This document shows, one piece after another, positions 2,198 to 48,650 of a stretch of DNA of 64,000 nt (positions are counted from its first letter, which is position 1; each line of letters starts with the position of its first letter). The notes under the pieces are model-generated. The model saw only the letters and a list, made by a program, of their open reading frames with translations, was not told the DNA's origin and ran no database searches. The translations under genes and the position numbers were made by a program. The stretch comes from Escherichia phage Cyrano: sequence record OV696614; one strand, written 5' to 3'.

Positions 2198-2403
2198 TCG
2201 TGCGTAAAGGATGTTTCGGCTCTCTTATCGCTGCTTCTGAAACTGGTAAGGCTTGTCTGGTATGTCCAGACAAGCCCGATTGTCACCAATCAGCAAAAGA
2301 AGTTGCGATTTCGATGTATGGGAAGTTCGTAGGCTTCCCCAATGACAAAATCAAAAAAACCATAAAGGTAAAAACACATGAAAGCACTGATGGTTCGAAC
2401 TGA
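2194..2403 (+). CDS. small Cys-rich ORF (hypothetical)
   Basis: 69-codon ORF with TTG/GTG start overlapping the upstream stop; four Cys in a C-x13-CxxC-x5-C pattern; overlaps start of the polymerase gene. Weak support. Confidence 0.2.
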   Translation: MIVRKGCFGSLIAASETGKACLVCPDKPDCHQSAKEVAISMYGKFVGFPNDKIKKTIKVKTHESTDGSN

Positions 2404-5400
2404 CTTCTCACTTGGGGAGTCGGCTCTAAAAGCAGAAAACGCGGTGAAGATTGCCAGAGAAGCTGGCTACACCGCTGTAATTTCAGCAGATAGCATGAAT
2501 ATTGCGAGTGTTATTCCACTACAACGTGCCGCTGGTGACGACATGGCGGTTATTTGTGGTGTGAAACTAAATATCGTTGATGATCCCACATACGAGCACC
2601 GGGCTAAACTTGCTAAAGAATCTATGAGATGTATGGAATCATTAGAGCGGGGACGTAACTACTCGTTTACCGCTCTAATTAAAAATGAGCAAGGATATCG
2701 CGACATCTGCGAACTAATGACGGCGGCCAACACACGAGAACAGTTCTACTTTGTACCGCGTCTCTCGCTCGAACAGTTGGTTTCTACATATGCCAAAGGC
2801 AACATCATCCTGCTTACTTCCGACATCGGTAGCGTGTTCCAACGCAACGATTTTGCAAAAATCATAAGCACACTGATTACAGCGGGTGGAAAAGACAACT
2901 TCTATAGTGTGGTTTATCCGCACCCTACCCCATTCTACGACCAGATTAACGTCCGGGCGATGAAAGTCGCCAGCGCATTGAAAATAGAGCCAGTGGCGTT
3001 CTATCCCGCTTATTACGAATCGATCGACGATGCAGACATTAAAGACATTGCGCACATGGTTACGAACAACATCAAAATCGACCAGCCGCATCGTCTGCGT
3101 ATCCCCCACCAGCGAGATAACGCCATCAATGGTCGTCGCCATCTCCTTGAGGCGCTTAAAGCCTTCTCCGTTCGCATGGATGTGCCGGTAACAGCTGCAA
3201 TGGCCTCAACAACGCAGGACTCCATTATCGATGCCTGCACATGGCGCTGGCATGAATTGCCACCAGCACTGCCCAAGATGGCAGACGACGAACCTGCAAC
3301 GCTGATGAAACTGGCTGTTGCAGGGCTGCGTAAACGTCTTACCACAAAAGAGTTTGGATACACACCACCTGCTTCTGAGAACAGGGTTTATGTTGAGCGG
3401 CTAAAGTACGAAATGGACACGCTGACTCGCCTGGGATTCTGTGGTTACTTCCTGATGGTACGCGATCTGATGAATCACAGCCGTGAAACTGGCATTCCTG
3501 TCGGGCCTGGTCGTGGTTCCTCTGCCGGTTCTCTGGTGGCGTGGTGCATAGGCATAACCAACGTCGACCCAATCCGTCACGGTCTTCTGTTTGAGCGTTT
3601 CATCAACCCTGAGCGTCTCGACTTGCCGGATGCGGACTTGGACTTCAGCCAGGCACGTCGCCATGAGGTGATCGAGTATCTGAATGAACGCTACGGCGAA
3701 GATTACGTTGCAGGCATTCCGAACTTCACCTATCTGGGCGCGGCATCTGCACTACGTGACACCGCTCGTATTTATGGTGTGGAGTCCGCAGATATGGCGG
3801 TATCAAAAGAACTGAAGAACGTCGAGGATGATAGCCTTCCATTGGAAGAGCTGCGCGAACAACTGGCAAGTCTCGACAAATACGCAACAAAATATCCTGA
3901 TGCATTCAATGCAGCCTGCAAGTTACAAAGCCTTATGCGTGGCTTTGGTAGACATGCGGCAGGGATGATCGTAGCAGGTGTTCCTCTGACAGAACGTACA
4001 CCGGTTGAGCGCCGTGGTGACGCGCGTTGTATCGCATTTGACAAGCGTTACTGCGAGGCTATGGGCCTAATTAAGCTGGACGTGCTTGGCCTGGCAACTC
4101 TCGATTTGCTCGATAGTGCAAAACGCTACATCAAAGAGAGTACCGGGGAAGACATCAATCTCGACGCTATCCCACTGGACGATCGCAAGGTTCTGGATGG
4201 GTTCGCTGCAGGGTACACGCAGGGCGTATTCCAGCTGGAGTCCGGCCCCATGCGTAAGTTGCTTAAAGATCTGGGCGGTGGCATCGAGCCAATGAGCTTC
4301 AAGACCGTTGTCGCCACGACCGCACTCTTCCGACCAGGCCCGATCCAATCCGGCATGTTGGACGACTATGTCTCCGTGGCCAAAGGCTTCATGGCTCCAC
4401 ATTCAATTCATCCGCGTCTTGAGGAAGTCACCCGGGAGACTAATGGTGTTTTGCTCTATCAGGAACAAATCATGCAAAGTTCCCGAGTACTTGCCGGGTT
4501 CTCTATGGCCGAAGCAGACGCTCTGCGTTCCGCTATCGGTAAAAAGAACATGGATAAGATGAAAGCGATCGGCAGCGATTTTGTAGAACGAGCACAAGCA
4601 GGCTGGGTGACACTGTCACTCAAAAATGGAGGTACTGTAGAGGTTCACAAACACGCAAAACTGGATTGCTCAGACGGTAAGCGTAGAAGCTACAGCGAGG
4701 CTATTAGTGACGGCATAGACTACGTGGAGATCGTCTCTGAACAAGAAGGTCTCAGTAAGGAAAAAGCCCAAGAAATATGGGACGCCTTTGAGAAGTTCGG
4801 TGGATATGCCTTCAACAAATCACACAGTGTTGCTTATTCTTTAATCAGTTATCAGTCTATGTGGCTAAAGACGCACTACCCTGCTGAGTTCTTCGCAGCT
4901 GCGCTCACCATTCTGGGCGAGGATAAGCATCAGGGGCTGGTGAAGGATGCGCTGACCTATGGCATTCGCGTATTGCCACCAGACGTTAATGTGTCATCTA
5001 ACCGAATTGAGATCCGCACACTCGAAGACGGCAGTCAGGCACTGTATGCGCCATTCTCTGCTGTGAAAGGCTGTTCTGAAAATGGTTGTCAGGCAATTAT
5101 GCGTGCGCGTGAGAAAGTTGGTGGCAAATTCGAGTCAGTGGCACAATTCGATGAAGCGGTCGAGAAGCGTGCATGTAACAGTCGTGTACGCGAGTCGCTT
5201 CATAAAGTAGGGGCTTTTGCGTCAATTGAGCCAGGCAGTCTGCCAGCAACTGATCCTGAACGACTGCGCGACCAGGCTGAGCTGATGGGCAATCTCATCA
5301 TTGACGCTGTTAAAGCATCACGTCCGTTCGAAATGAATCCTAAGCGTTCTGCCGAAATCAACGTACTCATGACACGTATGGCGGCTGAAATGGGCTTGGG

Positions 5401-5884
5401 TGAGGAGTTGATACGCCCGACTATTGGTATTAAACCCAAAATCATGATCATTCTGGACAATGCGAACGGCAATGACGCTCGTACCGGCTACTTCATGGAG
5501 AACGGATACGACGACTTTAAGGCAAAACTACTGACAGTTGGAGATCTGCGCATGGGCGATCTTTATGTCACGGGTGTTTGTAAGAAGGTTAAGGACAAAG
5601 AGAAAGACTATACCAAAGACGAGATAGGCCAGTTCACAGACTTTATGCGGGAAGAAATTAATCTTGTACGACCAACCTACATTTTGACGTGTGGTAGTCG
5701 TTCAACCGCACTATTTAACAATAAGAGTAAACCATCAGATCTGATTGGTCGTAAGGAGTACTTCCCAGAGCTTGATGCAACCGTCTTCTACGGATTTAAC
5801 CCGAATATCCTGTACTTCCGACCGGAAGAAGGAGAGCGACTGGAGGCCATTCTGGCTGATATCGCGGAGACAATAAATAAGTAA
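2378..5884 (+). CDS. dnaE: DNA polymerase III alpha-subunit-like replicative polymerase (DnaE family)
   Basis: 1168 aa. Conserved Pol IIIα palm region GFCGYFLMVRDL...GPGRGSSAGSLVAWCIGITNVDP...FERFINPER. N-terminal PHP-like region lacks the usual His residues. About 200 aa C-terminal extension of unclear fold. Confidence 0.85.
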   Translation: MKALMVRTDFSLGESALKAENAVKIAREAGYTAVISADSMNIASVIPLQRAAGDDMAVICGVKLNIVDDPTYEHRAKLAKESMRCMESLERGRNYSFTALIKNEQGYRDICELMTAANTREQFYFVPRLSLEQLVSTYAKGNIILLTSDIGSVFQRNDFAKIISTLITAGGKDNFYSVVYPHPTPFYDQINVRAMKVASALKIEPVAFYPAYYESIDDADIKDIAHMVTNNIKIDQPHRLRIPHQRDNAINGRRHLLEALKAFSVRMDVPVTAAMASTTQDSIIDACTWRWHELPPALPKMADDEPATLMKLAVAGLRKRLTTKEFGYTPPASENRVYVERLKYEMDTLTRLGFCGYFLMVRDLMNHSRETGIPVGPGRGSSAGSLVAWCIGITNVDPIRHGLLFERFINPERLDLPDADLDFSQARRHEVIEYLNERYGEDYVAGIPNFTYLGAASALRDTARIYGVESADMAVSKELKNVEDDSLPLEELREQLASLDKYATKYPDAFNAACKLQSLMRGFGRHAAGMIVAGVPLTERTPVERRGDARCIAFDKRYCEAMGLIKLDVLGLATLDLLDSAKRYIKESTGEDINLDAIPLDDRKVLDGFAAGYTQGVFQLESGPMRKLLKDLGGGIEPMSFKTVVATTALFRPGPIQSGMLDDYVSVAKGFMAPHSIHPRLEEVTRETNGVLLYQEQIMQSSRVLAGFSMAEADALRSAIGKKNMDKMKAIGSDFVERAQAGWVTLSLKNGGTVEVHKHAKLDCSDGKRRSYSEAISDGIDYVEIVSEQEGLSKEKAQEIWDAFEKFGGYAFNKSHSVAYSLISYQSMWLKTHYPAEFFAAALTILGEDKHQGLVKDALTYGIRVLPPDVNVSSNRIEIRTLEDGSQALYAPFSAVKGCSENGCQAIMRAREKVGGKFESVAQFDEAVEKRACNSRVRESLHKVGAFASIEPGSLPATDPERLRDQAELMGNLIIDAVKASRPFEMNPKRSAEINVLMTRMAAEMGLGEELIRPTIGIKPKIMIILDNANGNDARTGYFMENGYDDFKAKLLTVGDLRMGDLYVTGVCKKVKDKEKDYTKDEIGQFTDFMREEINLVRPTYILTCGSRSTALFNNKSKPSDLIGRKEYFPELDATVFYGFNPNILYFRPEEGERLEAILADIAETINK

Positions 5885-8383: not shown

Positions 8384-9412
8384 ATGTCTAAGACATTACT
8401 TGATTTGCTTAACAAAACTCGTGAAGACATTGCCGCCAAACGTGGCAACAACGTTGATCTGACTCGCTTAAAAGACGGCGTCAACTATATCCGCATCTTC
8501 CCGAATAAAGACGACCCAAACGGTAAGTTCTTCCAGACTTTCGGTATGCACTACGTTAAGTATCAGAACGAGGAAGGTAAAGAAGCAACCAACGCTTATA
8601 TTTGTGAGCAACATACTCACGGTCGCGCTTGTCAGCTATGCGAAATGGTGATGGAAGGTCGCGCTCGTCACAAGGGTAACAAAGCAATGGAAGAACGCAT
8701 CGGTCAAATGCGTGCCACTCCTCGCTACCTGGTCAACGGCATTCTTTCTGCTCGTGAGGATTTCGCAGATGCTGAGAAATGCCAGTTAATCGAGCTGCCG
8801 TCTACTGTATTCGATGATATCTGCAAAGCAATCACCGAAGACATCGCTGATGATATCGGCAATCCACTGAGCAAAGAGGAAGGCTACGCATTCCTGATTA
8901 AACGTACTGGCTCTGGTCGCGATACCAAATATGACGTCTCGCCTAAGCGTAAAGTCTACAAAGGCGATATCGAAGATAAATTCTGGAACACCCAGCATGA
9001 TCTGATCGCATACGCAAATCAGGCTGATGAAACTCGTCTTCTGTCGACAGTTCGCACTATGGGTCGTCTGATTGGCATCGCTGCACCAACTGCCGCAGCA
9101 TCTGCACCAGCAATTTCCTCAACCGCGAAAACATCGGCTGCGGCACTACCTGGATTTGGCTCTGTCACTGGTCATACAGAAGGAGCGACGGCTGTAGCAA
9201 CCGCGCACACACCGGCTTCTGAACCAACCAGTCTGGTTGATGAAGAAATCCTCCGTGCCGTTGAAACTGAATTTAAACCAGAGGCAAGTTCCGCTGCCGT
9301 TGCCGTATCAGTCAAAGAGTCTGAAGCAGTCGCAGCGACATCTGTAGCAACCGCATCTGCGACGGAAGATGAAGGTCTGGATGACCTACTGAGAGAGCTG
9401 GACTCTCTGTAA
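8384..9412 (+). CDS. single-stranded DNA-binding protein, T4 gp32-like
   Basis: IRIFPNKDDPNGKFFQ resembles the gp32 N-terminus; zinc-ligand pattern CEQHTH...CQLC; acidic C-terminal tail (DEGLDDLLRELDSL); RBS GGAG upstream. Confidence 0.8.
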   Translation: MSKTLLDLLNKTREDIAAKRGNNVDLTRLKDGVNYIRIFPNKDDPNGKFFQTFGMHYVKYQNEEGKEATNAYICEQHTHGRACQLCEMVMEGRARHKGNKAMEERIGQMRATPRYLVNGILSAREDFADAEKCQLIELPSTVFDDICKAITEDIADDIGNPLSKEEGYAFLIKRTGSGRDTKYDVSPKRKVYKGDIEDKFWNTQHDLIAYANQADETRLLSTVRTMGRLIGIAAPTAAASAPAISSTAKTSAAALPGFGSVTGHTEGATAVATAHTPASEPTSLVDEEILRAVETEFKPEASSAAVAVSVKESEAVAATSVATASATEDEGLDDLLRELDSL

Positions 9413-10685: not shown

Positions 10686-13025
10686 ATGGCAAAAGGAAAA
10701 TCCGCACTGGCACTTGCTCTGAAAAAGAAAATCGGTAGCAACGACGAAATTCAGAAAGTAACTCATTGGATTGACACAGGCTTTCCTCCGTTAAACAAAG
10801 CTATTTCCGGTCGTTACGATGGCGGTTTCCCATGTGGTCGTATCGTAGAAGTATTCGGGCCACCAAGCGCGGGGAAATGTGTTACCGCAGACACCATGCT
10901 GCTGACGGAGCGTGGAATGGTAACAGTGAAAGAACTGTTTGAGATTGAGGGGCACAAAGCAACATGCACTACTCGCGATGTAGAGCATAACGTTGGACTC
11001 ATCAATGAAAATGGCGTGATAGAGAAGACCTCACACCTGACATGGAACAACCGTCGCAAATTCAAGCGTATTAAGCTGGCATCAGGCGGTTATATCGAGG
11101 CTACGTTCCGTCACCCAATCCGTGTGGTTGACGACTTAGGTAATGTCGTCTGGCGACATGCTGAAAAAATCAGTGTAGGCGACACGATTCCTTCAATGGT
11201 TGGCACACATCAATTCGGCGATCAGCACCTGGATGCCAATATCGCAAAACTGATGGGCTATTTAATTGCTGACGGATACGTGGCCTCTGAAAATTCAGTG
11301 AATTTTTCTAACACAGATCCTTTCATCAAGGATGAGTACTACCGCCTCATTTCGCTGGTATCAGACAAGATGCCAGTTACGAGAAAACATAACGGCTCGG
11401 AAGACCATGTGCTGTTTAGCAAAGAGGTGCGTTCGCTGCTTTTTAAAGAGTATGGTCTGGAGTATGAGAAAGCTGCTGGCAAGCAGGTTCCGTTGAGTGT
11501 GCGTCGCGCCAATAGCGAGGCTCAAATTGCATTCCTTCGCGGCTACTTTGAGCTGGAATGCCACGTCAATGATGGTCGCTGCATTGAGGTTGTGAGCGCG
11601 AGTGGGCTGCTGCTACAGCAAATTCGCCTCATGCTCCTGAATCTGGGGATTACGTCAACTATCTCTGAAAAACACGTCGCGGGTTATGAAAATACATATT
11701 ACCGGCTGTCATTCAGTGGCTCTAATTACGACCTTTTTCTGTCAACGATTGGTTTCGAATCTCCGGCACGTTTATCAGTGGCAACCAAACGGGACATTGG
11801 TTTTGACCGCACTTACTCAGGCTATGTTCCGCACATCAGCGGCTTAGTGAAATCACTCTACGAGTCGCTCACCAAGACCACCCGTGAAGACTACGCTCTG
11901 GTAGACCACGTTATTGGCCGCGGCGATCGTGTCGGAATAGACAAACTGCGAGAAATCTATGTCTCCTTCATTGGCAGAAAGAATCGTTTTAACGAGCATC
12001 TGTTTGCACAACTGGCAGCGGTAATTGGCTCTAACTTGTTCTACGACGAAGTCGTGGCTATTGAGGAAGGTGAAGCACCAACGTTCGACGTAGCGATGCC
12101 GGAAACACACTCTTTCTGGTCTAACGGGATTATCAGCCACAACACATTCCTTGCAACAGCAGCGATGATCTCCGCTCAAAAACAAGATGGTCTGGCGGTA
12201 TTCCTCGATCATGAAAACAGTTTTGACGTTGGCCTGGCTGTAGCCAATGGCCTGAACGCAGATGAGGATGACGGTCAGTGGGTATACAAGCAGCCAGATA
12301 CCTTCGAAGACTCTGTAGAGTTGATCGGCACAATACTTAAATTGGTTCGTGATGAAGAGCTTATCCCCGAATCAGCACCTATCTGTATCGTGGCTGACTC
12401 TCTTGCGTCTATGGTTCCGAACTCCAAAGCCGAGAAGTTCGAAAAGATGGCTGAAGGCACTGCCAAAGACAAAGATCAGCTAAACATGAACGACAATACG
12501 GCACTGGCTCGTGCGACGAGTGCGAACTTCCCTACTCTGGCTTTGTGGGCACGCAAATACAACGCCTGCATCATCTTCTTGAATCAGGTTCGCACAAAAA
12601 TCGGTGTAATGTTTGGCGACCCTACTACGTCGCCAGGTGGAGATTCACCGAAGTTTTACGCTTCTGTGCGCATCCGTCTCGGTGCATCGGTGATGAAGGA
12701 TGGGAAAGAGAAGATCGGCCAGGACGTAGGCGCAGAATGCATCAAAAACAAAGTTGCACCACCGTATGGCAAATGCACCTGGAAATTCTACTTCGATCCT
12801 ACTCGTGGCCTCGACGTTATCGAGTCGCTCGTCGAGTACATGCTGGAAGAAGGATACCTGCCAAAGAACGCCAGCGGGCGAGTTGAAATTGGTGACAAGA
12901 AATACACCAAATCGCAGATCGTCGACATGTATCGGGAGAAGCCATTAGCAGAAATCATTGCTGCGTTACAGGCGATAGATGACCGACGAGAGAAGACATC
13001 ACCAACAGAAGAACTAGAAGATTAA
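10686..13025 (+). CDS. recA: RecA-family recombinase interrupted by an intein
   Basis: N-extein GRIVEVFGPPSAGK and C-extein TFLATAAMISAQ rebuild a RecA-like P-loop (GPPSAGKT). C-extein contains IFLNQVRTKIGVMFGDPTTSPGGDSPKFYASVRIR, very close to the RecA L2 region. Exteins total about 357 aa. Confidence 0.85.
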   Translation: MAKGKSALALALKKKIGSNDEIQKVTHWIDTGFPPLNKAISGRYDGGFPCGRIVEVFGPPSAGKCVTADTMLLTERGMVTVKELFEIEGHKATCTTRDVEHNVGLINENGVIEKTSHLTWNNRRKFKRIKLASGGYIEATFRHPIRVVDDLGNVVWRHAEKISVGDTIPSMVGTHQFGDQHLDANIAKLMGYLIADGYVASENSVNFSNTDPFIKDEYYRLISLVSDKMPVTRKHNGSEDHVLFSKEVRSLLFKEYGLEYEKAAGKQVPLSVRRANSEAQIAFLRGYFELECHVNDGRCIEVVSASGLLLQQIRLMLLNLGITSTISEKHVAGYENTYYRLSFSGSNYDLFLSTIGFESPARLSVATKRDIGFDRTYSGYVPHISGLVKSLYESLTKTTREDYALVDHVIGRGDRVGIDKLREIYVSFIGRKNRFNEHLFAQLAAVIGSNLFYDEVVAIEEGEAPTFDVAMPETHSFWSNGIISHNTFLATAAMISAQKQDGLAVFLDHENSFDVGLAVANGLNADEDDGQWVYKQPDTFEDSVELIGTILKLVRDEELIPESAPICIVADSLASMVPNSKAEKFEKMAEGTAKDKDQLNMNDNTALARATSANFPTLALWARKYNACIIFLNQVRTKIGVMFGDPTTSPGGDSPKFYASVRIRLGASVMKDGKEKIGQDVGAECIKNKVAPPYGKCTWKFYFDPTRGLDVIESLVEYMLEEGYLPKNASGRVEIGDKKYTKSQIVDMYREKPLAEIIAALQAIDDRREKTSPTEELED
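10878..12143 (+). mobile_element. intein with double-motif LAGLIDADG homing endonuclease, inserted in the RecA P-loop
   Basis: In-frame 422-aa insert starting with Cys (CVTADTML) and ending in His-Asn (IISHN) before Thr+1; LAGLIDADG-type motifs LMGYLIADGYV and FLRGYFELECHV. Confidence 0.75.
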
Positions 13026-28250: not shown

Positions 28251-29354
28251 GTGTCACTCCTTTTGAATCGAGAGCATACGAACGGTCAGGTAACAAACGC
28301 ATCGTATGCAAAAGTTATTGAGACGGTGCTTAAAAGCGGCGTGCAGGCTGATGATCGCACAGGCACTGGCACTTTAAGCACCTGCTACGTTCCCTCTTAC
28401 TACATGCTTACTGGTGGGACTGTGCCGCTTATTTCTGGAAAGGCGGTAAATCTTAAGCCACTACTTGTCGAACTTGAGTGGTATCTGAAAGGCACGGGCA
28501 ACATCCAATTTCTCAAGGATAACGGCGTTAAGATTTGGGATGCATGGGCCGATGAGAATGGCGATTTGGGGCCGGTTTACGGTAAGCAGTGGCGTCGATG
28601 GGAAGATACCCGCATCGTGAGCCATAGTGAATATCTGAGCAAGATCGCTACTTTCCGTGAACGCGGGTACAAAGTCGAGGGATACCTGGGTATCAGTGAA
28701 GATCGCGTAGTGCTGTCCCGTGAAATCGATCAGCTACAGCGTATTGTCGATACACTGCGCACGAACCCTACCGATCGTCGCATCATGCTTAACGCATGGA
28801 ACGTAGGCGAGCTTGAGGATATGAAACTGCCACCTTGCCACTTTGTCTTCTCTTTGTGGAGTCGTGAGCTGGATTTTGAAACCCGTTTAACGATGGCAAC
28901 TGACATTGGTCTTCAACACAGTCGCCTCGGTTACGAGTCTATCTACACCAAGATGCTATACGATCTGGAGATGGACGGCAGTGTTACTGAAGCTGAACTG
29001 GATGAACTTGGAATCCCCAAACGCATCCTCAACTCCTGCCTCGTACAGCGTAGCGTAGACACTTTTGTTGGTATGCCATTCAATATTGCTGGCTATGGCA
29101 TTCTCACTCATTTTCTCGCGAAGATTACGGGTCACATGGCCGGTGCATTTGTGCATTTTGGCTTTGACGTGCATTTGTACAACAACCACATGGAAGGTGT
29201 GTGTGAGCTAATGAAACGACAGGCTCCAGAGCATTCAGATCCGGTCGTTATTTTCCCTCATGAATGGTCAGAGTTGGATGATTTCAAATGGGACGAGGTT
29301 TTAATTCTTGGCTATGACCCTCTACCGTGGATCAAGGTTCCAGTGGCGGTGTGA
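28251..29354 (+). CDS. thyA: thymidylate synthase with two internal insertions
   Basis: DRTGTGTLS, IWDAWADENGDLGPVYGKQWRRW, DRRIMLNAWNVGELEDMKLPPCHF and MPFNIAGY match ThyA active-site blocks; 367 aa versus about 264 in E. coli, so insertions are present. GTG start. Confidence 0.85.
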   Translation: MSLLLNREHTNGQVTNASYAKVIETVLKSGVQADDRTGTGTLSTCYVPSYYMLTGGTVPLISGKAVNLKPLLVELEWYLKGTGNIQFLKDNGVKIWDAWADENGDLGPVYGKQWRRWEDTRIVSHSEYLSKIATFRERGYKVEGYLGISEDRVVLSREIDQLQRIVDTLRTNPTDRRIMLNAWNVGELEDMKLPPCHFVFSLWSRELDFETRLTMATDIGLQHSRLGYESIYTKMLYDLEMDGSVTEAELDELGIPKRILNSCLVQRSVDTFVGMPFNIAGYGILTHFLAKITGHMAGAFVHFGFDVHLYNNHMEGVCELMKRQAPEHSDPVVIFPHEWSELDDFKWDEVLILGYDPLPWIKVPVAV

Positions 29355-43468: not shown

Positions 43469-44130
43469 TGCATAAATCAGTAGCCGGTGAGTTTCAGAAG
43501 GAAGTCGATAATACTACCGTTCTATTGGACGATATTTTAAGCATTCTCGCGCTTCTTGAGGCTGGCGATTGGTCAGAACATTGCACTAAAACGGAGTTAG
43601 GCGGTCGGCTTGAAAGAGAGATTACACGACTTATTGGTGATGCGCAGGAAGCTACAGTCACTAGTTATGAGTTAATCGCTGAAGCCTGGCGTTTGATGGA
43701 TGGACAAGATCCTAAAACCAGCGATTGGCATAGCAAGGCTTCGAAGTATTTAAATTCCGATAGGGTAGAAAAAGTTGATGATGTGAAACCGAAGCCAGTA
43801 GACCACGGTTTCCGCGATAACTGCGAATGCTCTAGTTGCCAGACCACGGCCCGTATTTGTTCCGAATTGACAGATAAGTCCAGCCTAATCTACGAAGTTA
43901 ATGTAGGCGGTAATACATGGGTCGAATGCACAAGAGCTGCATACGTAAGAGCAAAAGACAAGGGTGAATTAACCAGAGTTGTTACCAATCACCCAAATAA
44001 TGAGCTTAAAGATCACCAGATTCGAGAACTGGTGAACGAGTTGAGAGATATTGCGGTTCAGTACCACGGAACGCAGCAATTGCGGGAGAAGATTGCCAGA
44101 GCAGTGAACAACTCAGTCCGTAAAAAATAA
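43465..44130 (+). CDS. hypothetical protein
   Basis: 221-codon ORF, last gene of a coupled plus-strand operon. Confidence 0.45.
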   Translation: MMHKSVAGEFQKEVDNTTVLLDDILSILALLEAGDWSEHCTKTELGGRLEREITRLIGDAQEATVTSYELIAEAWRLMDGQDPKTSDWHSKASKYLNSDRVEKVDDVKPKPVDHGFRDNCECSSCQTTARICSELTDKSSLIYEVNVGGNTWVECTRAAYVRAKDKGELTRVVTNHPNNELKDHQIRELVNELRDIAVQYHGTQQLREKIARAVNNSVRKK

Positions 44131-44571
44131 GCAATAGTACGATAAAGAGGCCCCATGCTCTTGATGGGGCCTGTAGCAACTAGCGTTATGGACGCTGGTT
44201 TACGTACTCAATGATCGCTTTGATAATCGCGAACATCGGCGGCACGATTTTGAACAGTAAGTTAACCATAACAGGCCTCACTTAGTTTTATCGCGCCTAG
44301 CTGCAAATACCTTTGGGCTTGCCTTTGCAGTTGCAATATCTGTAGTCGCCAGATACTTACGGCACGATTTCGAGTTAAGGTAAGGTTTTAGAGTCACCAA
44401 AAACCTGGACTTAAATCTTCTTTGAGAACAACGATGTTTAGTAAATGGTCATTATTACCTGGTATGACCACTCAACGTTTCTTGATGAATCCAGTACATT
44501 CGGTTAATCTTAATTCAGTCGCCAGATACTTATGGCTCAGGAACAGAGCCGCAAACTCTGTTTCCTTTTAA

Positions 44572-44600
44572 AAAGCCCAGCCTAGTCAACTGGGCTTTTT
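44572..44600. terminator. bidirectional terminator-like hairpin
   Basis: AAAAAGCCCAG-CCTAGTCAA-CTGGGCTTTTT: hairpin flanked by an A-tract and a T-tract. Confidence 0.5.
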
Positions 44601-44895
44601 AATGTCTATTTTTAACCCAATGAACCTTCAATACCGCAACATCAGTGTCTTGCGAATTAAGATAGTGTGTATAGGTTATGCATGCAAGTGCATAACTCTG
44701 TGGATAACTCAGGAAGGAAAAAGTAGCTTCCGCGCAATTTAGGCCAGACAAGGCTTTCGCAAAAGTCAACAGAGAGAAAAAATTTGTTAAAAATAACGTT
44801 TGTTGGAATTGTATATATTTATGCCTTTCAATAGTTAGCATCTTATTAACATCTTTTTTAAGAGATAGAGTTCAAAAATATATAGCTTCAACATA

Positions 44896-44915
44896 TACTG
44901 TATGTGTATACAGTA
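44896..44915 (+). promoter_or_regulatory. LexA (SOS) box upstream of the UmuD'-like gene
   Basis: TACTGTATGTGTATACAGTA is a perfect CTGT-N8-ACAG palindrome, 17 nt upstream of the start codon. Confidence 0.7.
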
Positions 44916-44931
44916 TTAAGAGGCGAGTATT

Positions 44932-45321
44932 ATGGGCTTCCCTTCTCCTGCGGCGGATTATGCTGAGAGCCGTATTTCTCTTGATCAGCAGATAATTAGA
45001 CATCCTTCAGCGACCTACTTCATGAGGGCAGCTGATAGTCATCATCGTGAGGGAATATTACAGGGTGCATTGCTGGTGGTCGATTCCTCACTTACCCCGG
45101 TTGATGGTTCTCTGCTTGTATGCGCTCTGGATGGGGAATATCGCGTAAAAAGATACCGGAAGTACCCACGTCAGCATCTGGAGGATTTAAGAACCGGTAA
45201 GAAGGAAGCATTGCCAAAGGATGACGATGGATGCACGGGCAGCAATGCCGTGTTTGGTGTGATCACTCACATTATCAACGACGCAAGAAGTGGCGAGTTT
45301 GATGATTGTCCCGTGATGTAG
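44932..45321 (+). CDS. humD: UmuD'-like protein (HumD-like, S24 LexA-type peptidase fold)
   Basis: Starts MGFPSPAADY..., i.e. at the position where UmuD is cleaved to UmuD'; HPSATYFMRA and VFGVITHII blocks match UmuD; in-frame stop 15 nt upstream; no umuC gene follows. Confidence 0.75.
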   Translation: MGFPSPAADYAESRISLDQQIIRHPSATYFMRAADSHHREGILQGALLVVDSSLTPVDGSLLVCALDGEYRVKRYRKYPRQHLEDLRTGKKEALPKDDDGCTGSNAVFGVITHIINDARSGEFDDCPVM

Positions 45322-45333
45322 GAGAACTGATTA

Positions 45334-45358
45334 GGCGGTGCATTGCACCGCCTTTTTA
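45334..45358 (+). terminator. rho-independent terminator between humD-like gene and apbC
   Basis: Hairpin GGCGGTGCA-T-TGCACCGCC followed by TTTTT. Confidence 0.55.
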
Positions 45359-46459
45359 TCACACTGCGCGGAATGCGATTTCGCCAGGTATTACTTCACC
45401 TTGCCAATACATTTGGGCAGCAACGCGATCTGCGAGGTCACGATAAATAGCCGTAAATTCGCTATCTGGACGACTAATAACGGTTGGTGTTCCGTTATCC
45501 AGATCTTCACGAAGAGAGATATGAAGTGGCATTTGGCCTAACAACTGCGTGTTGTATTTCTCGGCCAGTTTCTGTGCGCCACCGGTGCCAAAAATTGGCT
45601 CGTGATGACCGCAGTTACTGCAAATATGCACACTCATGTTTTCGACGATACCCAGTACCGGCACTTCGACTTTTTCGAACATCACAATGCCTTTCTTCGC
45701 ATCGATCAGCGCGATGTCTTGCGGCGTAGTTACCACAACCGCACCAGTTACAGGAATGTTCTGCGCCAGCGTCAACTGAATATCACCAGTGCCCGGCGGC
45801 ATATCGAGAACGAGATAGTCCAGATCAGGCCACAGTGTTTCCTGCAACATCTGCATCAGCGCCTTGCTGGCCATCGGTCCACGCCACACCATCGCATTGT
45901 CGTCAGTGACCAGATAACCAATTGAATTGGTTGCCAGGCCATGAGACATGATAGGTGCCATGTGAGTACCGTCAGGTGAGGTTGGACGTTGGTTTTCCGC
46001 GCCCAGCATGGTTGGAATTGATGGCCCGTAGATATCGGCATCCAAAATACCAACTTTCGCACCTTCAGCCGCCAGCGCCAGCGCCAGGTTTACCGCCGTG
46101 GAGGATTTACCCACGCCGCCTTTACCGGAGCTGACCGCAATGATGTTCTTCACGCCATTAATGCCTGGTTGGTTTTTGACGCGCTTAAGCGTGGCAATGT
46201 TGTACGACAGCTTCCAGTCAATAGCCTTTGCGCCAGTGATACGGAGCAGATCACCACTACATTGCTCTTTCAGATCTTCAAAAGGCTTATTCCACACGAA
46301 AGGCATGATTAGTTCGACATGCAGTGTGTCATCCATCAACGCAACATGGTGTAACGCTTTAAGCGTAGTCAGGTTGTGTTTCAGGGTTGGGTGCTGAAAA
46401 TTAGCCAGCGTACCGGCTACCATTGCTCTCAGGGCATCCGGCGATTTGGACTCGCTCAT
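45359..46459 (-). CDS. apbC: Fe-S cluster carrier ATPase ApbC/Mrp
   Basis: 366 aa with deviant Walker A SGKGGVGKSSTAVNLA and CSNCGHHEP motif; matches the enterobacterial Mrp protein by recall; divergent from metG as on the E. coli chromosome. Confidence 0.9.
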   Translation of the reverse strand: MSESKSPDALRAMVAGTLANFQHPTLKHNLTTLKALHHVALMDDTLHVELIMPFVWNKPFEDLKEQCSGDLLRITGAKAIDWKLSYNIATLKRVKNQPGINGVKNIIAVSSGKGGVGKSSTAVNLALALAAEGAKVGILDADIYGPSIPTMLGAENQRPTSPDGTHMAPIMSHGLATNSIGYLVTDDNAMVWRGPMASKALMQMLQETLWPDLDYLVLDMPPGTGDIQLTLAQNIPVTGAVVVTTPQDIALIDAKKGIVMFEKVEVPVLGIVENMSVHICSNCGHHEPIFGTGGAQKLAEKYNTQLLGQMPLHISLREDLDNGTPTVISRPDSEFTAIYRDLADRVAAQMYWQGEVIPGEIAFRAV

Positions 46460-46616
46460 CCCGTCTCCTTTATTTTAATTTGCGCAATTGTCGCCTTGTA
46501 GTGTACTCCAGCTACGACATTTAATCATTTATGAGAAATGCTGTTATCACATGGCAGACATAAGGCCATTTTGTTACTATCAAGCCCCTTTTCACTACAA
46601 AGAAGTAATGCCTACT

Positions 46617-48650
46617 ATGACCCAAGTCGCGAAGAAAATTCTGGTGACGTGCGCGCTGCCGTACGCTAACGGCTCAATCCACCTCGGCCATATGCTGGAG
46701 CACATCCAGGCTGATGTCTGGGTTCGTTACCAGCGAATGCGCGGCCACGAGGTTAATTTCATCTGTGCCGACGATGCCCACGGTACGCCGATCATGCTGA
46801 AAGCACAGCAGCTTGGTATCACACCGGAGCAGATGATTGGCGAAATGAGTCAGGAGCATCAGACTGATTTCGCAGGCTTTAACATCAGCTATGACAACTA
46901 TCACTCGACGCACAGCGAAGAGAACCGTCAGTTGTCTGAGCTTATCTATACTCGCCTGAAAGAGAACGGTTTTATTAAAAACCGCACTATCTCTCAGTTG
47001 TACGACCCGGAAAAAGGCATGTTCCTGCCGGATCGTTTTGTGAAAGGCACCTGCCCGAAATGTAAAGCGCCAGATCAATACGGCGATAACTGTGAAGTCT
47101 GCGGCGCAACATATAGCCCGACTGAATTGATCGAGCCGAAATCGGTGGTTTCTGGCGCTACCCCGGTAATGCGTGATTCCGAACACTTCTTCTTTGATCT
47201 GCCTTCTTTCAGCGAAATGTTGCAGGCATGGACCCGCAGCGGCGCGTTGCAGGAGCAGGTGGCAAACAAAATGCAGGAGTGGTTTGAATCTGGCCTGCAA
47301 CAGTGGGATATCTCCCGCGATGCGCCTTACTTCGGTTTTGAAATTCCGGACGCGCCGGGCAAATATTTCTACGTCTGGCTGGACGCGCCGATTGGCTACA
47401 TGGGTTCCTTCAAGAATCTGTGCGACAAGCGCGGCGATACCACCAGCTTCGATGAATACTGGAAGAAAGACTCCACCGCCGAGCTGTACCACTTCATCGG
47501 TAAAGATATTGTTTACTTCCACAGCCTGTTCTGGCCTGCCATGCTGGAAGGCAGCAACTTCCGCAAGCCGACCAACCTGTTTGTTCACGGCTATGTGACG
47601 GTGAACGGCGCGAAGATGTCCAAGTCTCGCGGCACCTTTATTAAAGCCAGCACCTGGCTGAATCATTTTGACGCTGACAGCCTGCGTTACTACTACACTG
47701 CGAAACTCTCTTCGCGCATTGATGATATCGATCTCAACCTGGAGGATTTCGTTCAGCGCGTGAATGCCGATATCGTGAACAAAGTGGTTAACCTGGCCTC
47801 CCGTAATGCAGGCTTTATCAACAAGCGTTTTGACGGCGTGCTGGCAAGCGAACTGGCTGACCCGCAACTGTACAAAACCTTTACTGATGCCGCTGAAGTG
47901 ATTGGCGAAGCATGGGAAAGCCGTGAATTTGGTAAAGCTATCCGTGAAATCATGGCATTGGCTGACCTGGCTAACCGCTATGTCGATGAACAGGCTCCGT
48001 GGGTGGTGGCGAAGCAGGAAGGACGCGATGCCGATCTGCAGGCGATTTGCTCTATGGGCATTAACCTGTTCCGCGTGCTGATGACGTACCTGAAGCCGGT
48101 ACTGCCGAAACTGACTGAACGTGCAGAAGCATTCCTGAATACAGAACTGACCTGGGATGGCATCCAGCAACCGTTGCTGGGCCATAAAGTGAATCCGTTC
48201 AAGGCACTGTATAACCGCATCGATATGAAGCAGGTTGAAGCACTGGTGGAAGCATCCAAAGAAGAAGTGAAAGCCACAGCCGCACCGGTAACTGGCCCAC
48301 TGGCTGACGACCCGATTCAGGAAACTATCACCTTTGACGACTTCGCCAAAGTTGACCTGCGCGTGGCGCTGATTGAAAACGCAGAGTTTGTAGAAGGTTC
48401 TGACAAACTGCTACGCCTGACGCTGGATCTCGGTGGTGAAAAGCGTAATGTCTTCTCAGGCATCCGTTCTGCTTATCCAGACCCACAGGCACTGATTGGT
48501 CGTCACACCATTATGGTGGCTAACCTGGCTCCGCGTAAAATGCGCTTCGGTATCTCCGAAGGCATGGTGATGGCTGCTGGCCCCGGCGGGAAAGATATCT
48601 TCCTGTTAAGCCCGGATGCTGGTGCTAAACCAGGCCACCAGGTTAAGTAA
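46617..48650 (+). CDS. metG: methionyl-tRNA synthetase
   Basis: 677 aa starting [26 protein letters not shown] (HIGH motif), KMSKS motif present, zinc knuckles CPKC...CEVC; near-identical to E. coli MetG by recall. Start set at ATG 46617, not the listed upstream 46488. Confidence 0.95.

What the first reader, a model, noticed from the sequence alone, without database searches (positions are those of the whole stretch)
44896..45321. SOS-controlled UmuD'-like gene without umuC
The protein begins at the residue where UmuD self-cleaves to active UmuD', so it would be constitutively in the activated form, and it sits behind a perfect LexA box. No polymerase V catalytic subunit is nearby. This is the arrangement described for the P1 humD gene, and links the element to the host SOS response.
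Basis: partly seen in the sequence, partly recalled or inferred. Interest (0 to 1): 0.5.

Follow-up and report, generated by a model that had tools for sequence, protein, structure and literature searches.

The report
LexA-controlled humD on a phage-plasmid
This is an ordinary, already catalogued copy of humD, a phage gene for a ready-activated helper subunit of the host's error-prone DNA polymerase V that is switched on by DNA damage; here it sits on an SSU5-type phage-plasmid of E. coli instead of phage P1.

Summary
Window 44932-45321 (+) encodes a 129-aa S24/UmuD-type protein whose Met-Gly start aligns with Gly25 of E. coli UmuD, the first residue of cleaved UmuD'. An in-frame TAA four codons upstream rules out an N-terminal arm. 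A LexA box (TACTGTATGTGTATACAGTA, 44896-44915) matches the consensus at 18 of 20 positions and overlaps a predicted -10 hexamer. A terminator follows the stop codon. No Y-family polymerase is encoded in the 64 kb window.

The protein passes NCBIfam's HumD equivalog model (219.8 bits, cut-off 120) and is 91.5% identical to P1 HumD (dN/dS 0.05). Its DNA is 100% identical to a RefSeq plasmid gene. All 80 viral relatives examined have a CTGT-N8-ACAG box 36-39 bp upstream of the ATG and no umuC within 4 kb.

The element is an SSU5-group phage-plasmid, not P1. It carries the gene as a self-contained cassette, also found in lambdoid prophages, next to captured host apbC-metG. umuC is present in 5423 of 5426 complete E. 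coli genomes, so the host can supply the catalytic subunit.

Verdict: already known, low interest. One small open point is an invariant C-terminal EFDDCPV tail that UmuD lacks.

The parts
44871..44899 (+). Predicted sigma-70 promoter: -35 TTCAAA (44871-76), 17-bp spacer, -10 TATACT (44894-99). The -10 overlaps the left arm of the LexA box.
   Evidence: It is the only promoter-like site in 44400-45500 and is a consensus match only; no transcription data.
44896..44915 (.). LexA (SOS) box TACTGTATGTGTATACAGTA, 18/20 to the E. coli consensus.
   Evidence: the only match within 3 mismatches in 64 kb, with none in 100 shuffles. The CTGT/ACAG arms are invariant in 80 of 80 viral relatives while the spacers and flanks vary. 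Homology with P1 begins exactly at this box. P1's equivalent site is annotated as a LexA binding site.
44917..44923 (+). In-frame TAA (44917-19) that closes the frame upstream, overlapping the Shine-Dalgarno AAGAGG (44918-23) 8 nt before the ATG.
   Evidence: Read directly.
44932..45321 (+). humD coding sequence, 129 aa plus stop. Ser36 is at 45037-39, Lys73 at 45148-50, and the HumD-specific C-terminal tail EFDDCPVM at 45295-45318.
   Evidence: dN/dS against P1 humD is 0.05.
45333..45353 (+). Intrinsic-terminator-like hairpin (9 pairs, 7 G-C) followed by TTTTAT, 12 nt after the stop codon. It closes a monocistronic unit.
45359..48650 (.). Context, not part of the system: captured host-type block of apbC/mrp (45359-46459, minus strand) and metG (46617-48650, plus strand).
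   Evidence: 3298 bp at 88.8% nt identity to K-12 mrp-metG, beginning at the mrp stop. Searches give the annotation. One search gives dN/dS of about 0.025 for both genes.
44579..44596 (.). Context: bidirectional terminator-like hairpin that separates the upstream ea22-like gene block from the humD unit.
   Evidence: Weak Rfam hits below threshold (AgrB 27.6 bits against a gathering score of 40, RNAI, Thr leader) are all carried by this hairpin.

Best explanation
The gene is an ortholog of phage P1 humD, carried as a self-contained cassette (promoter and LexA operator, SD, ORF, terminator) on an SSU5-group phage-plasmid of E. coli.

Proposed mechanism:
1. In undamaged cells host LexA sits on the box that overlaps the -10 hexamer and keeps the gene off.
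2. After DNA damage, RecA-stimulated LexA self-cleavage derepresses it.
3. The product is made directly in the UmuD' form. It begins Met-Gly, and removal of the Met would leave the same Gly N-terminus as cleaved UmuD. It therefore skips the slow RecA-dependent UmuD to UmuD' processing step and lacks the N-terminal arm through which UmuD is held inactive and targeted for proteolysis.
4. It dimerises and joins the host's chromosomal UmuC, with RecA-ATP, to give a Pol V-type translesion polymerase. This helps damaged host and element DNA to be replicated at the price of mutagenesis.

Shown here: the homology, the start position, the operator-like site and its conservation, the absence of umuC from the element, its near-universal presence in E. 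coli, and purifying selection.

Inferred: LexA binding, partnership with UmuC and the biological benefit. The partnership rests on published work on P1 HumD (McLenigan et al. 1999), of which only the title and the P1 GenBank note 'functionally complements E. coli UmuD'' were seen here; the paper itself is not held.
For: Family assignment:
- NCBIfam HumD equivalog at 219.8 bits against a cut-off of 120, full length.
- Pfam Peptidase_S24 and PHROG 811 'UmuD-like' from profile position 21.
- PDB UmuD' 1UMU at E=6.7e-23, aligned from its first residue.
- 91.5% aa identity to P1 HumD, whose record says it functionally complements UmuD' and has a LexA site.

Operator:
- The box is unique in the window and absent from all shuffles.
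- It overlaps the predicted -10.
- The arms are conserved in 80 of 80 viral loci across several unrelated upstream contexts.
- Boxes are also present upstream of the 44-72% identical homologs in N15, phiKO2, pAEv1818, yong1 and BTP1 and at 17 of 37 genome loci.

Orphan status:
- No UmuC in the window, in the 105 kb relative, or within 4 kb in 80 viral loci.
- umuC is present in 5423 of 5426 E. coli genomes.

Selection: dN/dS 0.05 against P1.
Against: - Nothing here shows LexA binding, transcription or a UmuC interaction for this copy.
- The promoter is only a 9/12 consensus match.
- From my memory of McLenigan 1999, which I could not read here, P1 HumD was poorly expressed and complemented well only from a high-copy plasmid. 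The physiological importance is therefore uncertain.
- An invariant C-terminal tail absent from UmuD' hints at a partner or function beyond simple UmuD' mimicry.
- The element encodes its own DnaE, a RecA-like protein and a gp32-like SSB (annotation), so host Pol V need not be its only target.
Confidence: 0.8

Rival explanations
1. HumD is mainly a modulator, not a polymerase subunit. Through its UmuD'-like body and its family-specific C-terminal tail it would bind other replication or SOS proteins: host UmuD as a heterodimer, the beta clamp or Pol III, proteins with SSB-tip binding pockets, or the element's own DnaE, RecA-like protein or gp32-like SSB. It would thereby tune replication or recombination of the phage-plasmid during the SOS response.
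For: - The tail E122-F123-D124-(D)-(C)-P127 is invariant or nearly so in 38 family members, while the catalytic Ser position drifts between S, T and A.
- The tail is kept down to about 50% identity across Enterobacteriaceae genera.
- It loosely resembles the E. coli SSB C-terminal tip DFDDDIPF. One homolog ends EFDDTPF.
- The element encodes its own replisome and recombination proteins (annotation).
Against: - The P1 ortholog is recorded as complementing UmuD', which this reading does not explain and does not need.
- The similarity of an 8-residue acidic tail has no statistical weight.
- No interaction could be tested, and the AF2 model was too poor to use (pLDDT 51).
Confidence: 0.12
2. The protein is an active S24 serine protease or LexA-like regulator that cleaves itself or another target, rather than a UmuD' mimic.
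For: - Ser36 and Lys73, the equivalents of UmuD S60 and K97, are both present in this copy.
- Many database entries name relatives 'LexA family transcriptional regulator' or 'S24 family peptidase'.
Against: - There is no DNA-binding domain. The protein is 129 aa, and the LexA model TIGR00498 scores 27 bits against a cut-off of 111, matching only the C-terminal domain.
- There is no N-terminal arm or cleavage site left to cut.
- The Ser position is T or A in close relatives and Q or Y in distant ones, and the Lys is Arg in distant ones. Catalysis is therefore not what is conserved.
Confidence: 0.04
3. The gene is a decaying passenger with no current function.
For: - A frameshifted copy exists in phage BTP1 and truncated fragments occur in several Stx and lambdoid phages.
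- P7 carries a broken remnant of this cassette.
Against: - This copy is intact with a full signal set.
- dN/dS against P1 is 0.05 with dS 0.80.
- The operator arms are invariant in 80 loci.
- The gene is found in 792 of 5426 E. coli genomes.
Confidence: 0.03

Closest known systems
Bacteriophage P1 HumD (AAQ14073.1; NCBIfam NF051876 'HumD family translesion DNA polymerase')
   Same: - 129 aa and 91.5% identical, with the same Met-Gly start at the UmuD' position.
- The same C-terminal tail.
- A LexA box 36 bp (here) or 39 bp (P1) before the ATG.
- No adjacent umuC.
- Nucleotide homology (83.9%) runs exactly from the LexA box to the stop codon.

   Different: - The carrier is an SSU5-group phage-plasmid, not a P1-type one.
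- The neighbours are ea22-like genes upstream and apbC-metG downstream, instead of lxr and phd-doc.
- There is no divergent lxr gene sharing the operator.
- The box spacer differs: ATGTGTAT here and ATAAATGA in P1.
E. coli UmuD / UmuD' (Pol V accessory subunit; PDB 1UMU, 1I4V, 8GMT)
   Same: - S24 fold-level homology at E=7e-23 over the whole UmuD' chain.
- The conserved GFPSPAADY start of UmuD'.
- Ser and Lys equivalents.
- A LexA-box-controlled promoter.

   Different: - It is made without the 24-residue arm, so no RecA-mediated cleavage is needed.
- It is not in an operon with umuC.
- It scores below the NCBIfam UmuD subfamily cut-off (87 against 110).
- It has an insertion at about residues 88-105 and a 12-residue acidic C-terminal extension.
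- GDSM is replaced by ADSH.
Orphan UmuD'-like genes of other temperate phages (N15 gp26, phiKO2 gp23, HK140 gp28, Aeromonas pAEv1818 gp11, Hafnia yong1 gp76)
   Same: - Start at MGFPSPA.
- The same EFDD-type tail.
- No umuC.
- Most have a LexA box.
- They are placed as cargo genes near tail-fibre, partition or integrase genes.

   Different: - Only 44-71% identical.
- In phiKO2 and HK140 the gene is paired divergently with a dinI homolog, which is not present here.
Complete phage- or plasmid-borne umuDC-type operons (Salmonella phage Oslo, Cronobacter phage ENT39118; mucAB, rumAB and impAB known from the literature)
   Same: LexA-box-controlled S24 accessory subunit carried on a mobile element.
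   Different: Those encode a full-length, cleavable UmuD-type protein with the N-terminal arm and an adjacent Y-family polymerase gene. This one has neither.

Membership tests
HumD family (P1 HumD-type pre-activated UmuD') | Sequence passes the curated family model | tested here: met
   NCBIfam NF051876 equivalog at 219.8 bits against a cut-off of 120, covering 1-129 of 129. 91.5% identity to P1 HumD.
HumD family (P1 HumD-type pre-activated UmuD') | S24/UmuD' C-terminal-domain homology | tested here: met
   Pfam PF00717 at 37.9 bits against 23.3. PDB 1UMU UmuD' at E=6.7e-23, query 2-118 against chain 1-114. The fold could not be confirmed by a model: AF2 gave pLDDT 51.
HumD family (P1 HumD-type pre-activated UmuD') | Translation starts at the residue equivalent to UmuD Gly25; no N-terminal arm or cleavage site | tested here: met
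   M1-G2 aligns with UmuD C24|G25. There is an in-frame TAA at 44917-19. The PHROG 811 match starts at profile position 21.
HumD family (P1 HumD-type pre-activated UmuD') | No cognate umuC-type polymerase gene beside it | tested here: met
   tblastn with UmuC gives E>1 in 64 kb. No Y-family polymerase among the ORFs of 280 aa or more, nor in the annotation of the related 105 kb plasmid. None within 4 kb in 80 viral loci.
HumD family (P1 HumD-type pre-activated UmuD') | LexA operator in the promoter region | tested here: met
   The box at 44896-44915 is 18/20 to the consensus, is unique in the window and was reached by 0 of 100 shuffles. It overlaps the predicted -10. It is conserved in 80 of 80 relatives. 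This is sequence-level evidence only.
HumD family (P1 HumD-type pre-activated UmuD') | LexA actually binds and represses; expression is SOS-inducible | not testable with these tools
   Needs EMSA or footprinting and RT-qPCR with and without DNA damage.
HumD family (P1 HumD-type pre-activated UmuD') | Dimerises, binds UmuC and RecA filaments, complements UmuD' in mutagenesis | not testable with these tools
   Known only for the P1 protein, from the GenBank note and the title of McLenigan 1999 seen. It is inferred here from 91.5% identity.
HumD family (P1 HumD-type pre-activated UmuD') | Family-specific C-terminal tail (..NDARSGEFDDCPV-M/I) | tested here: met
   Residues 116-129 are present. E122, F123, D124 and P127 are invariant in 38 members. 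The tail is absent from UmuD.
Canonical UmuD (autoproteolytic Pol V subunit) | Full-length precursor with N-terminal arm and Cys-Gly cleavage site, in a umuDC operon; passes the UmuD subfamily model | tested here: not met
   No arm is present. NF007621 scores 87 bits, below its cut-off of 110. No umuC is present.
LexA / phage CI-type repressors | N-terminal DNA-binding domain joined to the S24 domain | tested here: not met
   The protein is 129 aa. TIGR00498 scores 27 bits against a cut-off of 111 and matches only model positions 91-166.

The most novel reading that the evidence does not exclude
HumD-type proteins may be more than pre-cleaved UmuD'. The clade has relaxed the protease serine (S, T or A, and Q or Y further out) but fixed a short acidic C-terminal tail, E-F-D-D-C-P-V-(M/I), which UmuD lacks and which resembles the SSB C-terminal tip (DFDDDIPF). 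If this tail is a docking peptide for SSB-tip-binding pockets or for another replisome partner, phage HumD would recruit or redirect translesion synthesis by a route that host UmuD' does not use. That could include acting on the phage-plasmid's own DnaE, RecA-like and gp32-like machinery.
Probability: 0.1. Interest if true: 0.5.

Novelty: already known. Interest (0 to 1): 0.15.

Why it matters
It matters little as a discovery. The gene family is curated (NCBIfam HumD), the P1 prototype has been characterised, and this allele's DNA is 100% identical to a RefSeq plasmid gene (WP_000506720.1).

It is useful as annotation. It shows that an SSU5-group phage-plasmid, like P1, N15 and many lambdoid prophages, plugs into the host SOS regulon with a LexA-controlled, ready-activated Pol V cofactor and relies on the host's near-universal umuC. 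About 15% of complete E. coli genomes carry such a gene. These elements could therefore shorten the normal delay before mutagenic translesion synthesis, which bears on stress-induced mutagenesis and the evolution of resistance.

Tried and rejected
- AF2 structure prediction on a 38-sequence family alignment gave mean pLDDT 51 and pTM 0.42. This is too poor to use, so no fold search was run. Membership rests on sequence matches to solved UmuD' structures.
- A weak Rfam hit to AgrB, the antisense RNA of the SOS toxin dinQ, at 44522-44603 (27.6 bits against a gathering score of 40) raised the idea of a divergent SOS-controlled type I toxin. The alignment is carried by a generic hairpin plus terminator, and RNAI and Thr-leader hit the same hairpin, so this was rejected as a chance match.
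- I looked for a divergent partner sharing the LexA box, as lxr does in P1 and dinI in phiKO2 and HK140. There is no Lxr homolog. The 80-aa minus-strand ORF 44599-44841 shows no evident resemblance to DinI (as recalled) and looks like an AT-rich artefact; this was judged by eye only, with no search run on it.
- My first assumption, that apbC and metG marked a chromosomal prophage junction, was wrong. They lie on the plasmid.
- McLenigan 1999 and Lobocka 2004 could not be read. Statements about them rest on GenBank notes, cited titles and my own recollection.
- Two phage-plasmid surveys were searched for humD, UmuD or SOS in the SSU5 group and mention nothing.
- No heterology index was computed for the box, because I had no verified matrix.

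Full report
**1. What is in the sequence**

The plus strand of window 44932-45321 carries a 129-codon ORF with an ATG start. Four codons upstream, an in-frame TAA (44917-19) closes the frame. An AAGAGG Shine-Dalgarno sequence (44918-23) lies 8 nt before the ATG.

At 44896-44915 lies TACTGTATGTGTATACAGTA. It matches the E. coli LexA consensus TACTG(TA)5CAGTA at 18 of 20 positions, and both mismatches are in the central spacer. The loose core CTGT-N8-ACAG is not rare on its own: 2 were found against 0.83 expected. The 20-mer is a different matter. It is the only site in 64 kb within three mismatches of the consensus, and none of 100 shuffles produced one.

The only promoter-like site in 44400-45500 has its -10 hexamer TATACT at 44894-99, overlapping the left arm of the box. 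A G+C-rich hairpin with a T-run at 45333-45353 follows the stop codon. The unit is therefore promoter and operator, SD, ORF and terminator: a self-contained cassette.

**2. What the protein is**

- Pfam gives Peptidase_S24.
- NCBIfam gives the curated equivalog NF051876 'HumD family translesion DNA polymerase' at 219.8 bits (cut-off 120) over the whole length.
- The canonical UmuD subfamily model scores below its cut-off (87 against 110). The LexA model matches only its C-terminal domain.
- Against solved structures the best match is UmuD' (1UMU, E=6.7e-23). Query residue 2 aligns with the first residue of the cleaved protein.
- PHROG 811 'UmuD-like' matches from profile position 21.
- Aligned with K-12 UmuD taken from the genome record, M1-G2 falls on C24|G25, the UmuD cleavage site. 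Ser36 corresponds to S60 and Lys73 to K97.
- The protein is 91.5% identical to P1 HumD. The P1 record describes HumD as functionally complementing UmuD' and marks a LexA binding site 39 bp before its ATG.
- dN/dS against P1 is 0.05 at dS 0.80, so the protein is under strong purifying selection.

**3. No polymerase partner on the element, but one in the host**

tblastn with K-12 UmuC finds nothing in the window (best E=4.6). The window has 18 ORFs of 280 aa or more, and none is a Y-family polymerase.
- Ten were scanned with Pfam: an AAA ATPase, a gp32-like SSB, a 5'-3' exonuclease, an intein-containing RecA-like protein, RepA, an SbcCD-like pair (two ORFs), a pyrophosphohydrolase-domain (PRA-PH) protein, a DUF4942 protein and a DEAD-box helicase.
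- Seven are identified from the related plasmid's annotation or from K-12: DnaE, NrdA, NrdB, ThyA, an ABC ATPase, ApbC and MetG.
- One is an artefact antisense to metG.

The PGAP annotation of the 97-98% identical 105 kb plasmid pAVS0747-B lists none either. By contrast, umuC is found in 5423 of 5426 complete E. coli genomes.

**4.

- The window is not P1 and not a chromosome. It is an SSU5-group phage-plasmid. It is 97-98% identical to E. coli plasmids of 105-120 kb and to the induced phages PhiR41_1 and CMS-2020a. Its first 24 kb match Salmonella phage SSU5 at 79.5% identity over 80% of their length.
- The humD region is absent from SSU5 itself, so it is accessory cargo of the E. coli lineage.
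- Nucleotide homology with P1 begins exactly at the LexA box and ends at the stop codon (83.9%). The box plus the gene is therefore the conserved, mobile unit.
- The same cassette, with the identical protein WP_000506720.1 and the upstream ea22-like genes, sits in a lambdoid prophage at tRNA-Thr/proA in several chromosomes. That copy shares window 43795-45422 at 99.4%, including 64 bp of the apbC 3' end. This suggests transfer from the phage-plasmid to the prophage.

**5. Comparative support for SOS control and orphan status**

- All 80 viral-contig relatives (91-100% identical) have a CTGT-N8-ACAG box 36-39 bp before the ATG. This holds across several unrelated upstream sequence families; the spacers vary and the arms do not.
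- None has UmuC within 4 kb. 53 sit next to phd (P1 type) and 23 next to apbC (SSU5 type).
- More distant orphan homologs (N15 gp26, phiKO2 gp23, pAEv1818, yong1, BTP1) also begin at MGFPSPA, and most have a box. In phiKO2 the site is annotated as lexA-binding and is shared with a divergent dinI.
- Phages with a complete umuDC operon (Oslo, ENT39118) encode the full-length protein with the arm.
- In species-representative genomes, relatives of 50-72% identity occur across Enterobacteriaceae genera. The tail-bearing ones never have UmuC within 3 kb.
- The protein database holds 561 clusters, many already named 'HumD family'.
- humD-like DNA occurs in 792 of 5426 E. coli genomes.

**6. Mechanism**

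The most likely reading (about 0.8) is the published P1 one. LexA represses the gene, DNA damage derepresses it, and the product is born as UmuD'. It dimerises and joins host UmuC and RecA to form a Pol V-type translesion polymerase. In doing so it skips the RecA-dependent cleavage delay and the controls that act through the UmuD arm.

The homology, the signals, their conservation and the availability of the partner are shown here. LexA binding and the UmuC partnership are inferred.

A pre-cleaved protein needs no protease activity, and the Ser position is S, T or A among close relatives and Q or Y further out.

**7. A small residue of novelty**

The family has an invariant C-terminal tail: E122, F123, D124 and P127 are invariant, and D125, C126 and V128 nearly so. 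UmuD lacks this tail. It loosely resembles the SSB C-terminal tip DFDDDIPF, and one homolog ends EFDDTPF. This could be a docking peptide for an additional partner, but nothing here tests it, and the AF2 model was unusable. I give it about 0.1.

**8. Verdict**

The gene is a catalogued member of a known family, so interest is low. The added value is a corrected context: an SSU5-type phage-plasmid and a mosaic cassette shared with P1-like and lambdoid elements.

Noticed in passing
window 45359-48650: A host-type apbC(mrp)-metG block sits on the phage-plasmid. It is 3298 bp at 88.8% nt identity to K-12 and begins at the mrp stop codon. MetG is 98.7% and Mrp 94.8% identical in protein, and dN/dS is about 0.025 for both. 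dS differs strongly between the two genes (0.28 for metG, 1.29 for apbC), which suggests a mosaic or a later recombination with the host. The block gives the element a second methionyl-tRNA synthetase. It is absent from SSU5 itself.
   Followed up: partly
L008 8196-9823 (E. coli SB0258h1 chromosome) vs window 43795-45422: A lambdoid prophage at tRNA-Thr/proA carries the same humD cassette at 99.4% identity, including a 64-bp remnant of the apbC 3' end. This implies the cassette moved from an SSU5-type phage-plasmid into the prophage.
   Followed up: partly
window 44659-44797 (DnaA box TGTGGATAA at 44699-44707): A 140-bp stretch upstream of humD is 82% identical to the region upstream of E. coli nrdA (ypaB), in the orientation pointing away from nrdA. 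It contains a consensus DnaA box. A related piece lies upstream of hot in P1 and P7. The ypaB-like reading frame is broken here after 14 codons. Its function is unknown.
   Followed up: partly
L010 3201-3435 (phage P7): About 2.5 kb upstream of its own humD, P7 carries a remnant of this window's upstream region. The remnant has half of the LexA box and a deleted humD 5' end, next to an IS903. It is a decayed second copy of the cassette.
   Followed up: partly
window 10686-13025: A 779-aa ORF is a RecA-like recombinase interrupted by an intein with a LAGLIDADG homing endonuclease (Pfam RecA, Intein_splicing, LAGLIDADG_3). Together with DnaE (2378-5884), a gp32-like SSB (8384-9412), a 5'-3' exonuclease and an SbcCD-like pair, the element carries much of its own replication and repair machinery but no UmuC (annotation).
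   Followed up: no
window 45295-45318 (HumD residues 122-129): The invariant family-specific C-terminal tail EFDDCPV(M/I) is absent from UmuD and resembles the SSB C-terminal tip DFDDDIPF. Meanwhile the protease Ser position drifts between S, T and A.
   Followed up: partly
window 44131-44600: About 450 bp after the 221-aa ORF has no annotated gene in any related record. It ends in a bidirectional terminator-like hairpin (44579-44596). Only sub-threshold Rfam hits (AgrB, RNAI) fall here, and all are carried by that hairpin.
   Followed up: partly
L003 33780-34256 (pAVS0747-B; not mapped to window coordinates, but adjacent to the thymidylate synthase gene whose window counterpart is 28251-29354): PGAP names the element's own dihydrofolate reductase 'trimethoprim-resistant DfrA51'. 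It sits in a nucleotide-metabolism block with thymidylate synthase and nrdAB.
   Followed up: no
L130 (Chitinophagaceae MAG) 3001-4595: A distant relative (41% identity) outside the Enterobacteriaceae also appears to start at MGFPSPAADY, but it has a UmuC homolog immediately downstream. This would be a pre-activated UmuD' inside an operon. The start codon was not verified.
   Followed up: no
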